A stretch of 3,393 nt of DNA from Escherichia phage BZ13. The position numbers were made by a program, and so were the translations under genes. This document shows positions 1-3,393 of the stretch, one piece after another. The notes beneath the pieces are model-generated. The model did not search any database, was not told where the DNA came from, and was given only the letters and a program-made list of their open reading frames with translations. Every line of letters starts with the position of its first letter. Positions within the stretch are counted from its first letter, which is position 1. Where the stretch lies: the sequence record FJ483838.1, one strand, 5' to 3'.

Positions 1-20
1 ATGCCGTTAGGTTTAGGTGA

Positions 21-38
21 CGGTATATCCATATACCG
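21..38 (+). promoter_or_regulatory. Perfect inverted repeat (cggtatat / atataccg) forming a 7-8 bp hairpin immediately 5' of, and overlapping the first G of, the maturation-gene Shine-Dalgarno sequence
   Basis: Positions 21..28 are the exact reverse complement of 31..38. A realistic fold is stem 21..27 with 32..38 and loop 28..31 (ucca). G38 is the first base of GGAGG at 38..42. Confidence 0.4.
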
Positions 39-42
39 GAGG
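38..42 (+). promoter_or_regulatory. Shine-Dalgarno sequence (GGAGG) for the maturation protein gene
   Basis: GGAGG at 38..42, 4 nt upstream of the ATG at 47..49. Confidence 0.6.
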
Positions 43-46
43 AGCT

Positions 47-1219
47 ATGTTTCCGAAACAGAATATCGATCGAACCTACAAGGTTACACTTATTTCTTAC
101 GACAAGAAGGGTAATGTCACTTCTGATGATTCTTTCGAATCGACAGAGAACTATCTCCTTCAAAATCGTTCGAATTCGTATAAACCTGGTTACGTTCGAA
201 AGGGATTCCGTAAACCGACAAACTTTTGGAATGGCTATCGCTATTTCAATCAGCCCGTCGGCGTCTTTACTCGGAAACTTGACAACGGTGGGAGACAAGT
301 CGCTGATTACGGTATCGTGAACCCTAATAAGTTCACTGCTAATAGTCAGCACTTGGGAGAGAACATGGTGATTTATCCAGGTCCTTTCTCGATCAATATT
401 GATAATAGAGCTAGTGTCGAAGTCCTTAATAAACTTTCTCAATCTAACCTCAATATTGGGGTTGCGATTGCAGAAGCTAAAATGACTGCTTCACTGCTTT
501 CTCGTCAATCGATCTCTCTCATCCGAGCCTACACTGCTGCAAAGCGCGGTAAGTGGCGGGAGGTGTTATCACAACTCCTTATCGCCGAACACCGTTTCAC
601 GAGACCCTCAAGGGATCTCGGAGGTCGATGGCTCGAACTGCAGTACGGTTGGTTACCTCTTATGAGTGATATCAAGGCTGGCTATGATCTGCTTACGCAG
701 ACTAAATTACCTGCTTTAATGCCTCTTAGAGTTACCCGCACCGTTGGCGGCACACACAATTATAAAGTGCGTAACGTCGAATCTGCAGGAGATACTTGGT
801 CATATAGCGATCGGCTCTCAGTGAATTACCGAATATGGTATTTCATCTCTGATCCCCGACTCGCATGGGCAAGTTCTCTAGGTCTCTTAAACCCATTAGA
901 AATTTATTGGGAAAAGACACCGTGGTCGTTCGTTGTTGACTGGTTTCTGCCCGTAGGAAATCTGATCGAAGCCATGAGTAACCCTCTTGGCTTAGACATC
1001 ATTTCTGGGACAAAGACCTGGCAACTCGAATCTAAATTGAACGCAACCATTAACGCATCAGGCTGGTCTGGGACAGCAAAGTTATCTGCATATGCGAAAG
1101 CGTATGACAGGTCTACTTTCTATTCCTTTCCAACGCCTATGCCTTACGTGAAATCCCCACTTAGTGGGCTTCACATGGCCAATGCGCTCGCATTAATTAA
1201 CCAACGCCTGAAAAGGTAA
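47..1219 (+). CDS. mat: Maturation (A / assembly) protein of an ssRNA levivirus, 390 aa
   Basis: Long ORF first in gene order, ending TAA at 1217..1219. Starting at the ATG at 47 gives exactly 390 aa, the size I recall for the GA A protein. The ORF track extends to a GTG at 17 (400 aa), but that codon has no SD while the ATG does. Position and size match the levivirus A protein. Confidence 0.85.
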
Positions 1220-1222
1220 ATC

Positions 1223-1226
1223 GGAG
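1223..1226 (+). promoter_or_regulatory. Shine-Dalgarno sequence (GGAG) for the coat gene
   Basis: GGAG at 1223..1226, 8 nt upstream of the ATG at 1235, inside the 15-nt A-coat intergenic spacer. Confidence 0.6.
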
Positions 1227-1234
1227 TTAGCCAC

Positions 1235-1627
1235 ATGGCAACTTTACGTAGTTTCGTACTCGTCGATAATGGCGGTACGGGGAATGTTACTGTCGTTCCT
1301 GTTAGCAATGCCAACGGCGTCGCTGAGTGGCTTTCTAATAACTCGCGCAGTCAAGCTTATCGCGTGACTGCCAGTTATCGTGCGTCAGGCGCGGACAAGC
1401 GCAAATACACCATCAAGCTGGAGGTACCGAAAATCGTTACCCAGACAGTTAATGGTGTTGAGCTGCCTGTTTCCGCATGGAAGGCTTACGCCTCCATTGA
1501 CCTGACCATCCCTATCTTTGCGGCGACCGACGACGTGACTCTTATTTCCAAGTCACTCGCTGGTCTCTTCAAGATTGGGAACCCGGTTGCTGATGCCATC
1601 TCTTCACAGAGTGGGTTCTACGCCTAA
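1235..1627 (+). CDS. cp: Major capsid (coat) protein, 130 codons; levivirus coat fold and RNA operator-binding protein
   Basis: The translation MATLRSFVLVDNGGTGNVTVVPVSNANGVAEW...LTIPIFA...GNP...SGFYA aligns along its whole length with the MS2 coat protein (MASNFTQFVLVDNGGTGDVTVAPSNFANGVAEW...LTIPIFA...GNP...SGIY) and matches the GA coat as I recall it. Length 130 aa, TAA stop at 1625..1627. Confidence 0.95.
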   Translation: MATLRSFVLVDNGGTGNVTVVPVSNANGVAEWLSNNSRSQAYRVTASYRASGADKRKYTIKLEVPKIVTQTVNGVELPVSAWKAYASIDLTIPIFAATDDVTLISKSLAGLFKIGNPVADAISSQSGFYA

Positions 1628-1634
1628 GGCGTAG
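1618..1634 (+). promoter_or_regulatory. Hairpin placing the coat UAA stop codon in its loop (cuacgcc-uaa-ggcguag), just upstream of the lysis start
   Basis: 1618..1624 (ctacgcc) is the reverse complement of 1628..1634 (ggcgtag). The 3-nt loop 1625..1627 is the coat stop TAA. Confidence 0.45.
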
Positions 1635-1644
1635 TTCTTCAGCA

Positions 1645-1839
1645 TTGGGTCAGAAAGCAATTAAACATAAGGAAAACCTATGTTCCGATTCACAGAGATC
1701 AAAAAGACTCTATGTATGGATCGCACTCGCGATTGTGCTGTCCGATTTCACGTCTATCTTCAGTCATTGGATTTGGGGTCTTCTGATCCTCATTCTCCAG
1801 ACTTTGATGGACTTGCCTACCTTCGTGACGAATGTTTAA
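1645..1839 (+). CDS. lys: Lysis protein (L-type single-gene lysis), 64 codons, in a third frame spanning the coat-replicase junction; start codon uncertain (apparent UUG)
   Basis: The frame is open from the TGA at 1591..1593 to the TAA at 1837..1839. It encodes a basic N-terminal region followed by a hydrophobic segment LYVWIALAIVLSDFTSIF..WIWGLLILIL that resembles the MS2 L protein segment LYVLIFLAIFLSKFT. It has the canonical levivirus L position, overlapping the replicase 5' end out of frame. There is no in-frame ATG or GTG; the first usable start is the TTG at 1645. Confidence 0.7.
   Translation: MGQKAIKHKENLCSDSQRSKRLYVWIALAIVLSDFTSIFSHWIWGLLILILQTLMDLPTFVTNV
1665..1683 (+). promoter_or_regulatory. 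Coat-protein translational operator hairpin containing the replicase SD and AUG (ACAUA-A-GG-AAAA-CC-UAUGU)
   Basis: Stem 1665..1669 pairs with 1679..1683, A1670 is unpaired, GG 1671..1672 pairs with CC 1677..1678, and the loop is AAAA 1673..1676. The replicase AUG is 1680..1682 and the SD AAGGA is 1669..1673. This is the same architecture as the MS2 operator (ACAUG-A-GG-AUUA-CC-CAUGU), with A at loop position -5 as reported for GA-type operators. Confidence 0.8.
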
Positions 1840-3278
1840 CTAAACATCCTTCACTTGGAGACAGTAATTCGGATGCACTCCGTAAGGAATTGGCATATGC
1901 CAAACTTATGGATAGTGATCAAAGATGCAAAATCCAAAACAGTAACGGATACGACCTGAGTCATATCGACTCTGGCGTACTTAACGGCATATTACTAACC
2001 GCTAAGGCTTCAATAGCGAAGTTACTTATGGGCTTTGAATCTCACTTCCTGAACGATTGTTCATTCTCCAATGGAGCCTCACAAGGGTTCAAGTTGCAGG
2101 ATGCAGCGCCGTTTAAGAAGATCGCTGGGCAAGCAACCGTTACAGCTCCTGCTTATGACCTAGCCGTGCACGCAGTTAAAACTTGCGGACCATGGCTTCG
2201 TTATATGCAGGAAACGTATGGCGATGAGACCAGATGGTTTCGTCGGGTATACGGAAACGGTTTGTTTTCTGTTCCGAAGAACAATAAAATAGATCGGGCT
2301 GCCTGTAAGGAGCCTGATATGAATATGTATCTTCAGAAAGGTGCTGGCTCTTTTATTAGACGCCGACTCCGATCTGTGAACATTGATCTTAACGATCAAA
2401 CACGCAATCAGGAATTGGCCCGACTTGGCAGCATTGATGGTTCGCTTGCTACTATTGATTTAAGTAGTGCTAGCGATTCCGTCTCTGATCGCCTCGTCTG
2501 GGATTTACTTCCGCCGCATGTTTATTCATATCTCCACCGTATCCGCTCATCTTTCACTATGATCGATGGGCAGTTACATAAGTGGAACCTATTTTCTACG
2601 ATGGGTAACGGTTTTACATTCGAGCTCGAGTCCATGATATTTTGGGCTCTGAGTAAGAGTGTAATGTCGTACCTCGGTGTTACTGGCTTACTTGGCATCT
2701 ATGGAGACGATATAATCGTCCCCACGAAATGCGCACCCCTTCTTCTACAGGTATTATCGGCTGTGAACTTTCTTCCTAACCAGAAGAAGACGTTTACTAC
2801 CGGTTATTTCCGTGAGAGTTGTGGGGCACATTTCTTTAAAGGTGCTTCAGTAAAACCTTTTTACTGCAAGCGGCCGATGGAAACCCTTCCCGATATTATG
2901 TTACTCTGTAACAGAATTCGTGGTTGGGGTACTATCGGGGGAATATCAGACCCTCGACTCTTTCCAATATGGAAGGAGTTTGCAGATATGATACCGCCTA
3001 AGTTTAAGGGTGGATGTAACCTTGATCGCGACACTTACCTTGTTTCACCGGATAAACCTGGTAAAACATTAGTTCGTGTTGCGAAGAAACGAAGTGGTTT
3101 TAACCATAAGTTTCGTAGTGACTATGAAAATGGTCGCTATATTCATTGGTTACATATGGGATCGGGCGAAGTGCTCGAAACTATATCTTCCGCCAGGTTT
3201 AGGTGCAAACCTAATTCGGAATGGAGGACACAGATCCCGCTATTTCCTCAGGAAATAGAGGCCTGCGTTCTCTCCTGA
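1680..3278 (+). CDS. rep: RNA-dependent RNA polymerase (replicase beta subunit), 532 aa
   Basis: Largest ORF and last in gene order. Contains RdRp motif A (IDLSSASDS, Asp codons at 2457..2459 and 2475..2477), a motif B-like region (SMGNGFTFELES) and motif C YGDD at 2700..2711. Size equals the GA replicase as I recall it. TGA stop at 3276..3278. Confidence 0.95.
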   Translation: MFRFTEIKKTLCMDRTRDCAVRFHVYLQSLDLGSSDPHSPDFDGLAYLRDECLTKHPSLGDSNSDALRKELAYAKLMDSDQRCKIQNSNGYDLSHIDSGVLNGILLTAKASIAKLLMGFESHFLNDCSFSNGASQGFKLQDAAPFKKIAGQATVTAPAYDLAVHAVKTCGPWLRYMQETYGDETRWFRRVYGNGLFSVPKNNKIDRAACKEPDMNMYLQKGAGSFIRRRLRSVNIDLNDQTRNQELARLGSIDGSLATIDLSSASDSVSDRLVWDLLPPHVYSYLHRIRSSFTMIDGQLHKWNLFSTMGNGFTFELESMIFWALSKSVMSYLGVTGLLGIYGDDIIVPTKCAPLLLQVLSAVNFLPNQKKTFTTGYFRESCGAHFFKGASVKPFYCKRPMETLPDIMLLCNRIRGWGTIGGISDPRLFPIWKEFADMIPPKFKGGCNLDRDTYLVSPDKPGKTLVRVAKKRSGFNHKFRSDYENGRYIHWLHMGSGEVLETISSARFRCKPNSEWRTQIPLFPQEIEACVLS

Positions 3279-3289
3279 TAGTATCAGGA
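3273..3289 (+). promoter_or_regulatory. Hairpin embedding the replicase UGA stop codon (ucctga-uagua-ucagga)
   Basis: 3273..3278 (tcctga) pairs with 3284..3289 (tcagga), with loop 3279..3283. Confidence 0.35.
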
Positions 3290-3344
3290 CCTCCCCGGAT
3301 GGGGTGGGTGGGACCGAAAGGTTCCTATGGAGGTGATATCCTCC

Positions 3345-3356
3345 CGCCGTAAGGCG
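3345..3356 (+). other. Small hairpin with a GNRA-type tetraloop (cgcc-GUAA-ggcg) in the 3' UTR
   Basis: CGCC 3345..3348 pairs with GGCG 3353..3356, loop GUAA 3349..3352. Confidence 0.35.
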
Positions 3357-3362
3357 TTTAAG

Positions 3363-3387
3363 GTGACTAGTTTGCTTGGCTAGTCAC
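3363..3387 (+). other. 3'-terminal hairpin (8 bp stem gugacuag / cuagucac, 9-nt loop) followed by the single-stranded CACCCA tail
   Basis: 3363..3370 is the exact reverse complement of 3380..3387. The loop is 3371..3379 (tttgcttgg) and the tail is 3388..3393. Confidence 0.6.
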
Positions 3388-3393
3388 CACCCA

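What the first reader, a model, noticed from the sequence alone, without database searches (positions are those of the whole stretch)
1..49. 5' end truncated; SD-occluding hairpin and ambiguous maturation start
The window lacks a levivirus-like 5' terminus, so about 70 nt of leader are probably missing. Within what is present, a perfect 8-nt inverted repeat (21..28 with 31..38) forms a hairpin whose 3' arm runs into the GGAGG at 38..42. In MS2 the A-gene SD is sequestered by leader structure, so A protein is only translated from nascent, not yet folded RNA; a comparable arrangement here is plausible. The six-frame ORF track begins the ORF at a GTG at 17, but the ATG at 47 has the SD and gives the expected 390 aa.
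Basis: partly seen in the sequence, partly recalled or inferred. Interest (0 to 1): 0.4.

Follow-up and report, generated by a model that had tools for sequence, protein, structure and literature searches.

The report
Truncated phage leader; known cloverleaf arm
The first 49 bases are the tail end of the well-studied 5' leader of a group II RNA coliphage whose record lacks its first 89-90 bases; the hairpin is a known arm of the leader cloverleaf and does not itself mask the ribosome binding site, so the finding is real but ordinary.

Summary
The window is a KU1-like group II levivirus (Emesvirus japonicum), almost certainly GenBank strain T72. Its 3' end is complete. Its 5' end lacks 89-90 nt, not about 70.

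- inverted repeat 21-28/31-38
- GGAGG at 38-42
- GTG at 17
- ATG at 47, giving 390 aa

The hairpin is real. It has 7 bp and a UCCA loop, every cell is paired in 8 distinct relatives, and 4 of 8 stem pairs show compensatory changes. It is the published "East arm" of the leader cloverleaf, and it shares only G38 with the Shine-Dalgarno (SD) sequence.

In complete leaders of relatives, the SD is masked by a long-distance pairing with an upstream complementary sequence. That sequence lies about 95 nt upstream, in the part missing from this window.

ATG 47 is the start codon:
- It has a strong SD, whereas GTG 17 has none.
- GTG 17 sits in a stem and is not conserved (ATG or GTT in relatives).
- 1-2 nt indels in relatives break the frame between 17 and 47.
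- Variable sites in 17-46 avoid third codon positions.

This is already known biology plus an incomplete database record. The one new lead is an alternative hairpin (1-9 with 18-26) that could act as a transient folding trap.

The parts
1..20 (+). 3' part of the South (S) arm of the leader cloverleaf. The inner helix is 3-5 with 10-12 and has a GUUA loop at 6-9. Positions 16-20 (GGUGA) form the 3' strand of the outer helix; its 5' partner lies in the missing sequence.
   Evidence: Equivalent to KU1 91-110. In KU1 and L222 the minimum-free-energy (MFE) fold pairs 86-90 with 106-110 and 93-95 with 100-102. Across group II, 2 of the 5 outer pairs covary.
17..19 (+). In-frame GTG that opens the mechanical ORF. 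It is not the start codon.
   Evidence: - It lies in the S-arm stem.
- It reads ATG in KU1, DL10 and DL20 and GTT in L125.
- Pairing of its upstream 16 nt with the 16S rRNA 3' end (anti-SD) is only -3.1 kcal/mol, rank 1093 of 3377 windows.
- The frame from 17 to 47 is broken by a 1-nt insertion in DL20, L124, L222, L223 and L224 and by 2 nt in L125.
21..38 (+). East (E) arm hairpin: stem 21-27 with 32-38, loop UCCA at 28-31. G38 is shared with the SD.
   Evidence: Searches show the repeat and fold. A covariance model from other clades hits window 18-52 at E = 3e-6. All cells pair and 4 of 8 pairs change on both sides. Pairing probability is about 0.99 once a KU1 or L222 5' part is grafted on, but below 0.2 in the truncated window alone.
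38..44 (+). Shine-Dalgarno GGAGG (38-42). Positions 39-44 (GAGGAG) form the 3' strand of the long-distance interaction, whose 5' partner is missing from the window.
   Evidence: - GA annotates its ribosome binding site at 127-131, which is window 38-42.
- The anti-SD duplex is -9.5 kcal/mol, rank 55 of 3377.
- In KU1 and L222 these bases pair with UUCCUU/AUCCUU at positions 31-37.
- The UCS base at alignment column 32 and the SD-flanking base equivalent to window 44 covary, U-A versus A-U.
47..1219 (+). Maturation (A) protein gene, 390 codons plus a stop codon.
   Evidence: - It corresponds to the annotated genes KU1 137-1309 and GA 136-1308.
- The protein is 100% identical to ACT66721.1.
- N-termini of homologues align as MFPK, MYPK and MMYPK.
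- Variable sites by codon position are 21/19/65.
1..26 (+). Alternative hairpin, 1-9 paired with 18-26. It is mutually exclusive with both the S and E arms and is a candidate transient structure.
   Evidence: - It is the MFE structure of the window alone and of KU1 prefixes 114-126 nt. The S and E arms replace it at 128 nt.
- Pair 8-19 is U.G in 10 sequences, A-U in L125 and C-G in L222.
- The exact pairing is not seen in the other clades; L139 prefixes show a similarly placed alternative helix of different sequence.
37..55 (+). Local hairpin pairing the SD (37-42) with codons 2-3 (UUUCCG, 50-55). The AUG lies in the loop.
   Evidence: Probability is about 0.77 in the window alone and 0.56-0.94 per SD base in the GA record. 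It is at most 0.11 in leaders with a KU1-type or L222-type 5' part.

Best explanation
Window 1-49 is the last third of the 136-137-nt 5' untranslated leader of a group II levivirus (KU1-like Emesvirus japonicum, almost certainly strain T72). The deposited sequence lacks the first 89-90 nt. The lost part holds the 5'-terminal GC hairpin, the upstream complementary sequence (UCS), the West arm and the 5' strand of the South arm.

The inverted repeat at 21-38 is the East arm of the leader cloverleaf. It ends exactly where the Shine-Dalgarno sequence begins.

In the intact genome, GAGGAG (39-44) pairs with a YUCCUU motif about 95 nt upstream. This closes a tight four-way junction and hides the ribosome binding site. 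By analogy with MS2, the maturation protein is then made only from nascent plus strands, before this long-distance pairing closes.

The East arm does not hide the SD. It is a structural neighbour that abuts the long-distance helix. Translation starts at AUG 47.

**Basis of each step**
- Shown here: the truncation, the hairpin with its covariation, the start codon evidence, and the predicted SD-UCS pairing in complete leaders of relatives.
- Taken from literature: the cloverleaf in KU1 and GA, and kinetic control in MS2.
- Inferred: that this virus's own missing leader carries the matching UCS.
For: **Identity and truncation**
- 90.9% identity to KU1 over window 1-3393 = KU1 91-3486, and to GA 90-3466.
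- The Mat protein is identical to ACT66721.1, found on a 3393-nt record.
- PMC3499819 gives group II genome lengths as 3458-3486 nt and lists T72 as FJ483838.
- All sequenced ssRNA phages carry a 5' GC-rich hairpin (PMC3561173). The window starts with AUGCCG instead.

**East arm**
-. RNAalifold run on longer leaders of relatives also predicts the S and E arms.

**SD masking by the upstream sequence**
- The KU1 MFE fold is a cloverleaf with z = -4.6.
- Partition-function probability of SD pairing with far-upstream bases:

| Leader | Probability |
|---|---|
| KU1 | about 0.9 |
| L222 | 0.74-0.89 |
| L139 | 0.77-0.96 |
| MS2 | 0.73-0.99 |
| KU1(1-90)+window graft | 0.87-0.90 |
| L222(1-89)+window graft | 0.78-0.88 |

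- Across group II leaders, 97.8% of cloverleaf cells are paired, and the long-distance helix is fully paired with one covarying pair.

**Literature**
- PMC4615214 summarises Groeneveld 1995 and van Meerten 2001. It describes a 5' hairpin plus W, S and E arms, the UCS-SD long-distance interaction, conservation in KU1 and GA with covariation, and kinetic control of maturation protein synthesis.

**Start codon**
-.
Against: - The partner of the SD is not in the window, so the key interaction cannot be shown for this virus itself.
- The GA record (X03869) does not fold into the cloverleaf; it gives the alternative hairpin plus SD pairing with codons 2-3. However, its first ~33 nt disagree with four GA-like contigs and with KU1, so they may be erroneous.
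- Window G44 would form only a G.U pair, or no pair, with the known UCS variants.
- All structure evidence is thermodynamic prediction and comparison. No probing data exist for group II beyond what the review cites.
- I could not read the primary papers.
Confidence: 0.9

Rival explanations
1. The hairpin 21-38 is itself the translational repressor. By running into GGAGG, it blocks 30S binding until it melts.
For: G38 is both the last stem base and the first SD base. The hairpin directly abuts the SD in every related clade examined.
Against: - Only 1 of the 5 SD bases is in the stem, and GAGG plus the 4-nt spacer are free.
- The isolated hairpin is weak at -7.7 kcal/mol, z = -0.95.
- In the window alone the hairpin forms with probability below 0.2.
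- In full leaders G38 is traded between C21 and the UCS (p about 0.5 each in KU1), while bases 39-44 pair far upstream.
- The MS2 literature shows that deleting the UCS or weakening the long-distance helix derepresses translation (PMC4615214).
Confidence: 0.05
2. The SD is masked mainly by a local downstream hairpin. CGGAGG (37-42) pairs with UUUCCG (50-55, codons 2-3) and the AUG sits in the loop. The upstream interaction would be secondary.
For: - This is the MFE structure of the window alone and of the GA record. Probability is about 0.77 in the window and 0.56-0.94 per SD base in GA.
- UUUCCG is invariant in group II.
- The review notes that in MS2 the ribosome binding region can also pair with downstream sequence (PMC4615214).
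Against: - Its probability is at most 0.11 when a complete KU1-type or L222-type leader is present.
- UUUCCG encodes the conserved Phe-Pro, so its invariance needs no RNA explanation.
- L138/L139 have no equivalent complementarity.
Confidence: 0.1
3. Translation starts, at least partly, at GTG 17, giving a 400-aa protein with an [10 protein letters not shown] extension.
For: - The ORF is open from 17, directly after the TAG at 14-16.
- KU1, DL10 and DL20 have an ATG at this position, and KU1 and DL10 keep it in frame.
Against: - There is no SD upstream: -3.1 kcal/mol, an unremarkable value.
- The codon is GTT in L125.
- The frame is broken by 1-2 nt indels in six relatives.
- The 4 variable sites in 17-46 are all non-synonymous, none is at the third codon position, and two of them are the compensatory pair 27/32 in the stem.
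- No homologue has such an extension.
- The codon is base-paired in the S arm.
Confidence: 0.03
4. The 5' end at window position 1 is biologically genuine: a naturally shortened or defective genome.
For: A metagenome contig (L109) and the chimeric junction in DL20 fall at the same ATGCCG.
Against: - L109 begins with a random-amplification primer (GTTTCCCAGTCACGATA), so its end is a priming site.
- DL20's first 84 nt are 97.6% MS2 sequence, a chimera joined at the shared ACCATG.
- The 5' GC-rich hairpin found in all sequenced ssRNA phages is suggested to be important for replication (PMC3561173).
- The S arm is cut in half at window position 1.
- Complete relatives carry 89-90 more nt.
Confidence: 0.02

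Closest known systems
Maturation-gene 5' UTR cloverleaf of MS2 and group II phages KU1/GA (Groeneveld et al. 1995; van Meerten et al. 2001; curated as the 'Levivirus 5' UTR' alignment by Zhu & Meyer 2015, PMC4615214)
   Same: - A hairpin (East arm) lies directly 5' of the SD.
- The SD is the 3' strand of a long-distance helix closing a junction of three arms.
- The start codon lies a few nt downstream.
- The window sequence is nearly identical to KU1 in this stretch, differing at 2 of 49 positions.
- Complete group II leaders fold as published.
   Different: - Only the 3' third is present here. The 5' hairpin, UCS, W arm and half of the S arm are missing.
- The best-supported register of the long-distance helix in group II is YUCCUU with GAGGAN, shifted 2-3 nt relative to the MS2 register.
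- The start codon is AUG here, whereas it is GUG in the MS2 reference (from my own knowledge; the MS2 isolate J20 examined here has AUG).
GenBank FJ483838, Escherichia phage BZ13 strain T72 (Friedman et al. 2009 set)
   Same: Record length is 3393 nt, and the maturation protein ACT66721.1 is 100% identical to the window's 47-1216 translation.
   Different: The record is labelled a complete genome in that series. It is 89-90 nt short at the 5' end compared with KU1, GA and L222. I could not read the record itself because it is absent from the phage collection.
Local SD-sequestering hairpins, i.e. translational operators with the SD inside the stem
   Same: A stem-loop lies next to a ribosome binding site.
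   Different: Here only the first G of GGAGG is in the stem. Sequestration depends on a partner about 95 nt upstream.

Membership tests
Levivirus maturation-gene 5' UTR cloverleaf | Stable GC-rich hairpin at the very 5' terminus (GG... start) | tested here: not met
   The window starts with AUGCCG inside the S arm. The hairpin is present in KU1 1-28 and L222 2-27. Its absence here is due to truncation of the record and is not a property of the virus.
Levivirus maturation-gene 5' UTR cloverleaf | [quoted passage not shown] | not testable with these tools
   The UCS of this virus is not in the window. In relatives the feature is met: KU1, L222, L139 and MS2, with 100% pairing and one covarying pair. 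Grafting the KU1 or L222 5' parts onto the window restores the pairing.
Levivirus maturation-gene 5' UTR cloverleaf | East arm hairpin immediately 5' of the SD | tested here: met
   Stem 21-27/32-38 with a UCCA loop. Covariance model hit at E = 3e-6. All cells paired and 4 of 8 pairs compensatory.
Levivirus maturation-gene 5' UTR cloverleaf | South and West arms enclosed by the long-distance helix | tested here: inconclusive
   Only the 3' half of the S arm (1-20) is present, and the W arm is absent. In relatives both arms are supported.
Levivirus maturation-gene 5' UTR cloverleaf | Metastable hairpin that traps the UCS, and kinetic (nascent-strand) translation of the A protein | not testable with these tools
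   The region is missing from the window. A UCS-containing hairpin is predicted in GA-like leaders. Kinetic control is experimental knowledge for MS2 (PMC4615214).
Emesvirus japonicum (group II F-specific RNA coliphage) | Gene order mat-coat-lysis-replicase, high identity to GA/KU1, 3' terminus ...ACCACCCA | tested here: met
   (90.9% to KU1, 85% to GA). The window also has the KU1-type 18-nt insertion after the coat stop codon.
Local SD-occluding hairpin | SD bases are paired within the hairpin stem | tested here: not met
   Only G38 of GGAGG is in the stem.

The most novel reading that the evidence does not exclude
The alternative hairpin in the window (1-9 paired with 18-26) is a conserved, group II-specific transient structure. 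On the growing plus strand it would form as soon as window base 26 is made. It would tie up the 3' strand of the S arm and the 5' strand of the E arm, and would have to melt before the cloverleaf and the SD-masking helix can close. That would make it a second kinetic trap widening the time window for A-protein translation.

**Support**
- It is the predicted MFE for KU1 prefixes 114-126 nt.
- Pair 8-19 is kept through U.G, A-U and C-G.
- In L125 the G19U change is compensated in both competing structures.
- An alternative helix with a similar layout but different sequence appears in L139 prefixes.

**Against**
- Only two independent substitution events support it, and 42 of 500 shuffles reach the observed score.
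- Any unpaired strand finds some partner in an MFE fold.
- The exact pairing is absent in L126 and MS2.
Probability: 0.2. Interest if true: 0.4.

Novelty: already known. Interest (0 to 1): 0.12.

Why it matters
- **Annotation:** the record behind this window (probably FJ483838) is 89-90 nt short at its 5' end. It lacks the replication hairpin and the element that controls A-protein translation, so it should not be used as a complete genome or as a template for an infectious clone.
- **Biology:** the analysis re-confirms, with new environmental sequences, a textbook case of translational control by RNA folding kinetics. It shows that the East arm and its UCC loop are kept in at least three further uncharacterised clades.
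- **New lead:** the only potentially new element is the alternative hairpin, which could be tested cheaply in existing KU1/MS2 cDNA systems.

Tried and rejected
- **Rfam:** the search of window, KU1 and GA found no family for this leader. It gave only sub-threshold hits to the MS2 operator hairpin at the replicase start.
- **Exact pattern around the SD in viral contigs:** this returned only GA itself.
- **Leader 16-mer in metagenome contigs:** 118 hits, of which only one (L109) is a levivirus; the rest are chance matches.
- **80 distant IMG/VR relatives** (at most 39% Mat identity): none matched the East-arm model at E <= 1, nor did MS2 or L136. The model therefore captures group II and its nearest clades only.
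- **MAFFT alignment of the hairpin:** it misplaces the compensatory 2-nt insertion in L125. Pair counts for the inner stem were therefore taken from the model-based alignment A5, which leans towards the structure.
- **RNAalifold on a 5'-gapped alignment:** it returns the alternative hairpin rather than the cloverleaf. On longer leaders it returns the S and E arms plus the UCS-trap hairpin, not the long-distance helix. Consensus folding alone therefore does not settle the equilibrium structure.
- **GA reference leader:** it does not fold into the cloverleaf. I attribute this to its aberrant first ~33 nt but cannot prove it.
- **Primary papers:** Groeneveld 1995, van Meerten 2001 and Friedman 2009 are not held.
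- **Exact-protein look-up of the window's Mat:** it found no contig, and FJ483838 is not in the phage collection. No sequence of this strain's own 5' end could be recovered.
- **Minus-strand ORFs**: I disregarded these on established knowledge that only the plus strand of ssRNA phages is translated.

Full report
**Identity of the window**

The 3393-nt window has the levivirus gene order:

| Gene | Coordinates |
|---|---|
| Maturation | 47-1219 |
| Coat | 1235-1627 |
| Lysis | 1645-1839 |
| Replicase | 1680-3278 |

- It ends in ...CACCACCCA.
- Megablast against phage records gives 90.9% identity to KU1 (window 1-3393 = KU1 91-3486). Identity to BZ13 strains DL10 and DL20 and to GA is 85-86% (GA 90-3466).
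- The maturation protein from ATG 47 is 100% identical to ACT66721.1. That protein is annotated 'assembly/maturation protein [Escherichia phage BZ13]' on a contig of 3393 nt.
- This accession falls between those of DL10 and DL20. PMC3499819 lists the third strain of that series as T72, FJ483838. FJ483838 is absent from the searchable phage collection.
- I infer that the window is that record.

**Truncation**

- The alignments run to the last base of KU1 and GA, so the 3' end is complete.
- At the 5' end, window position 1 equals KU1 91 and GA 90.
- A complete GA-like leader from a Logan assembly (L222) has 89 nt before the same ATGCCG, once two leading T's are removed.
- The missing piece is therefore 89-90 nt, not about 70.
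- PMC3499819 gives group II genome lengths as 3458-3486 nt.
- PMC3561173 states that all sequenced ssRNA phages start with a stable GC-rich hairpin suggested to be important for replication. The window starts inside a helix instead.

**The hairpin**

With a 2-nt spacer, all 8 pairs cannot form.
- ViennaRNA gives 7 bp (21-27/32-38) with loop UCCA, -7.7 kcal/mol, z = -0.95.
- Perfect 8-nt repeats with a short spacer appear 0.42 times per dinucleotide-shuffled window. The repeat alone is weak evidence.

Comparison with relatives decides the matter:

- GA carries A27G plus T32C, turning an A-U pair into G-C.
- L125 (78% Mat identity) inserts one extra A-U pair.
- L126 (49%) and L138 (40%) have different stem sequences, CCGUUGAA/UUCAACGG and CGGUGUAA/UUACACCG. 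Both keep the same UCCA loop and the same position directly before the SD.
- A covariance model built only from L125, L126 and L138 finds one site in the window, 18-52, at E = 3e-6.
- On the resulting alignment all 59 cells pair and 4 of 8 pairs change on both sides. No shuffle out of 500 reaches the observed values, and slid controls pair in only 21-47% of cells. This alignment is fitted to the structure, which favours it somewhat.

**What the hairpin is**

- The complete KU1 leader folds (MFE -59.5 kcal/mol, z = -4.6) into five elements:
  - a 5' hairpin (1-28);
  - a helix between 29-35 and 128-134;
  - three enclosed arms at 38-85, 86-110 and 111/112-127/128.
- This is the cloverleaf of Groeneveld et al. 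1995 as summarised in PMC4615214. It has a 5' hairpin and West, South and East arms. [quoted passage not shown] The structure is conserved between MS2 and KU1 and covaries in KU1 and GA.
- The window hairpin is the East arm, and window 1-20 is the 3' half of the South arm.

**How the SD is masked**

The stem shares only G38 with GGAGG. Partition-function results:

| Leader | SD pairing with far-upstream bases | East arm probability |
|---|---|---|
| KU1 | about 0.9 (two registers) | about 1 |
| L222 | 0.74-0.89 | about 1 |
| L139 | 0.77-0.96 | about 1 |
| MS2 | 0.73-0.99 | not tabulated (formed in the MFE fold) |
| L126 | partial, 0.6-0.7 for three G's | about 1 |
| Window alone | none | below 0.2 |
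| KU1 1-90 + window | 0.87-0.90 | 0.99 |
| L222 1-89 + window | 0.78-0.88 | about 1 |

- In the window alone, an alternative hairpin (1-9/18-26) and an SD-codon 2/3 hairpin (37-42/50-55, p about 0.77) form instead.
- On a 12-sequence group II alignment the cloverleaf pairs 97.8% of cells. The long-distance helix in the register YUCCUU/GAGGAN is fully paired. Its outer pair is U-A in KU1 and A-U in four GA-like sequences.
- The window has G at that SD-flanking position (44). This predicts U or C at the matching UCS position in its missing leader.
The occluding partner, however, is not the hairpin and is not in the window.

**Start codon**

- KU1 (137), GA (136), DL10, DL20 and ACT66721.1 all annotate the ATG equivalent to window 47. 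These are depositor annotations, and GA labels its own as putative.
- Independent points:
  - The 16 nt before ATG 47 bind the 16S 3' end at -9.5 kcal/mol (rank 55 of 3377 windows). Those before GTG 17 bind at -3.1 (rank 1093).
  - Position 17 is G in the window, GA, L109 and the GA-like contigs L124, L222-L225, and A in KU1, DL10 and DL20. The codon is GTT in L125.
  - Position 17 pairs with the S-arm 5' strand and covaries with it.
  - The distance from 17 to 47 is 30 nt in five sequences (plus L225). It is 31 nt in DL20, L124, L222, L223 and L224, and 32 nt in L125.
  - The four variable sites in 17-46 are all non-synonymous and none is at the third codon position. The first 300 nt after ATG 47 vary 21/19/65 by codon position.
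  - Homologue N-termini align at MFPK, MYPK and MMYPK, and none has the 10-residue extension.
- No N-terminal protein data for a group II A protein were found.

**Rivals**

These are set out in the rivals section:
- the hairpin as the occluder (0.05);
- the downstream SD-codon 2/3 hairpin as the main mask (0.1);
- GTG 17 initiation (0.03);
- a genuine 5' end at window position 1 (0.02).

**The one non-trivial lead**

- The alternative hairpin 1-9/18-26 competes with both the S and E arms.
- In KU1 it is the MFE for prefixes of 114-126 nt. It is replaced by S+E at 128 nt and by the closed cloverleaf at 132 nt.
- Its pair 8-19 is U.G in ten sequences, A-U in L125 and C-G in L222.
- In L125 the G19U change is matched both by U8A (keeping the alternative hairpin) and by a C-to-A change in the S-arm 5' strand (keeping the S arm).
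- This pattern is expected of a selected pair of exclusive structures. It rests on only two events, and 42 of 500 shuffles do as well.
- The published MS2 kinetic trap lies elsewhere, around the UCS (PMC4615214). That trap is also predicted in GA-like leaders.

**Verdict**

It describes a known structural arm of a known regulatory leader in an incomplete database record. Novelty: already known. Interest: low.

Noticed in passing
L003 (FJ483839, BZ13 DL20) 1-84; junction corresponds to window 1-3: The first 84 nt of the 'complete genome' of group II strain DL20 are 97.6% identical to MS2 1-82, but match KU1 over only 12 nt. The switch to group II sequence occurs at the shared ACCATG, exactly where the window begins. 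The grafted MS2 strand does not pair with the group II S-arm 3' strand. This looks like a chimeric 5' end, either a PCR/primer artefact or a recombinant.
   Followed up: partly
L002 (X03869, phage GA) 1-33: The first ~33 nt of the GA reference disagree with KU1 and with four GA-like environmental contigs (L222, L223, L225, L124), which all read ...GCGCCCCUUUCGGGGCGCUGCYUUCAUCCUUGAAGG. GA lacks that 5' hairpin, has ACCCUU instead of AUCCUU as the UCS, and does not fold into the cloverleaf. These are probably errors in the 1986 sequence.
   Followed up: partly
window 28-31; L125, L126, L138, L136, L140 (MS2) East-arm loops: The East-arm loop keeps UCC(A) in clades whose stems have diverged completely: UCCA in group II, L125, L126 and L138; UCC in MS2; UUCCUU in L136. 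This suggests a sequence-specific role for the loop that I did not find explained in the papers I could read.
   Followed up: no
window 1-26: The alternative hairpin 1-9/18-26 is mutually exclusive with the S and E arms. It is predicted to form first on the growing strand, and pair 8-19 is kept as U.G, A-U or C-G. It is a candidate extra folding trap.
   Followed up: partly
window 37-55: The SD (37-42) can pair with codons 2-3 (UUUCCG, 50-55), leaving the AUG in the loop. This dominates in the truncated window and in the GA record, but is minor (at most 0.11) in complete KU1-type or L222-type leaders.
   Followed up: partly
window 1628-1648: The window shares KU1's 18-nt insertion (GGCGTAGTTCTTCAGCAT) directly after the coat stop codon, plus a further 3-nt insertion. 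Both are absent from GA and L222. The 18-nt insertion splits the GA-type TAATG lysis start, so the lysis ORF opens at TTG 1645, as annotated for KU1.
   Followed up: partly
L126-L135, L137-L139, L136: Three uncharacterised Emesvirus-like lineages from public read assemblies have leaders of about 133-141 nt with the same S/E-arm layout; L126 and L139 also show the CAUCCUUGAA UCS motif (L136 does not). Their Mat identities to the window are 49%, 40% and 42%.
   Followed up: partly
5' ends of L125, L127, L128, L133, L137, L139, L224; L109 1-17: Several Logan contigs begin with untrimmed Nextera adapter (AGATGTGTATAAGAGACAG). The metagenome contig L109 begins with the random-amplification primer GTTTCCCAGTCACGATA. 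Apparent 5' ends of these contigs are therefore artefacts.
   Followed up: yes
window 1652-1683: There is a sub-threshold Rfam match (18.8 bits against a gathering score of 40) to the MS2 coat-protein operator hairpin at the replicase start, as expected for a levivirus.
   Followed up: no
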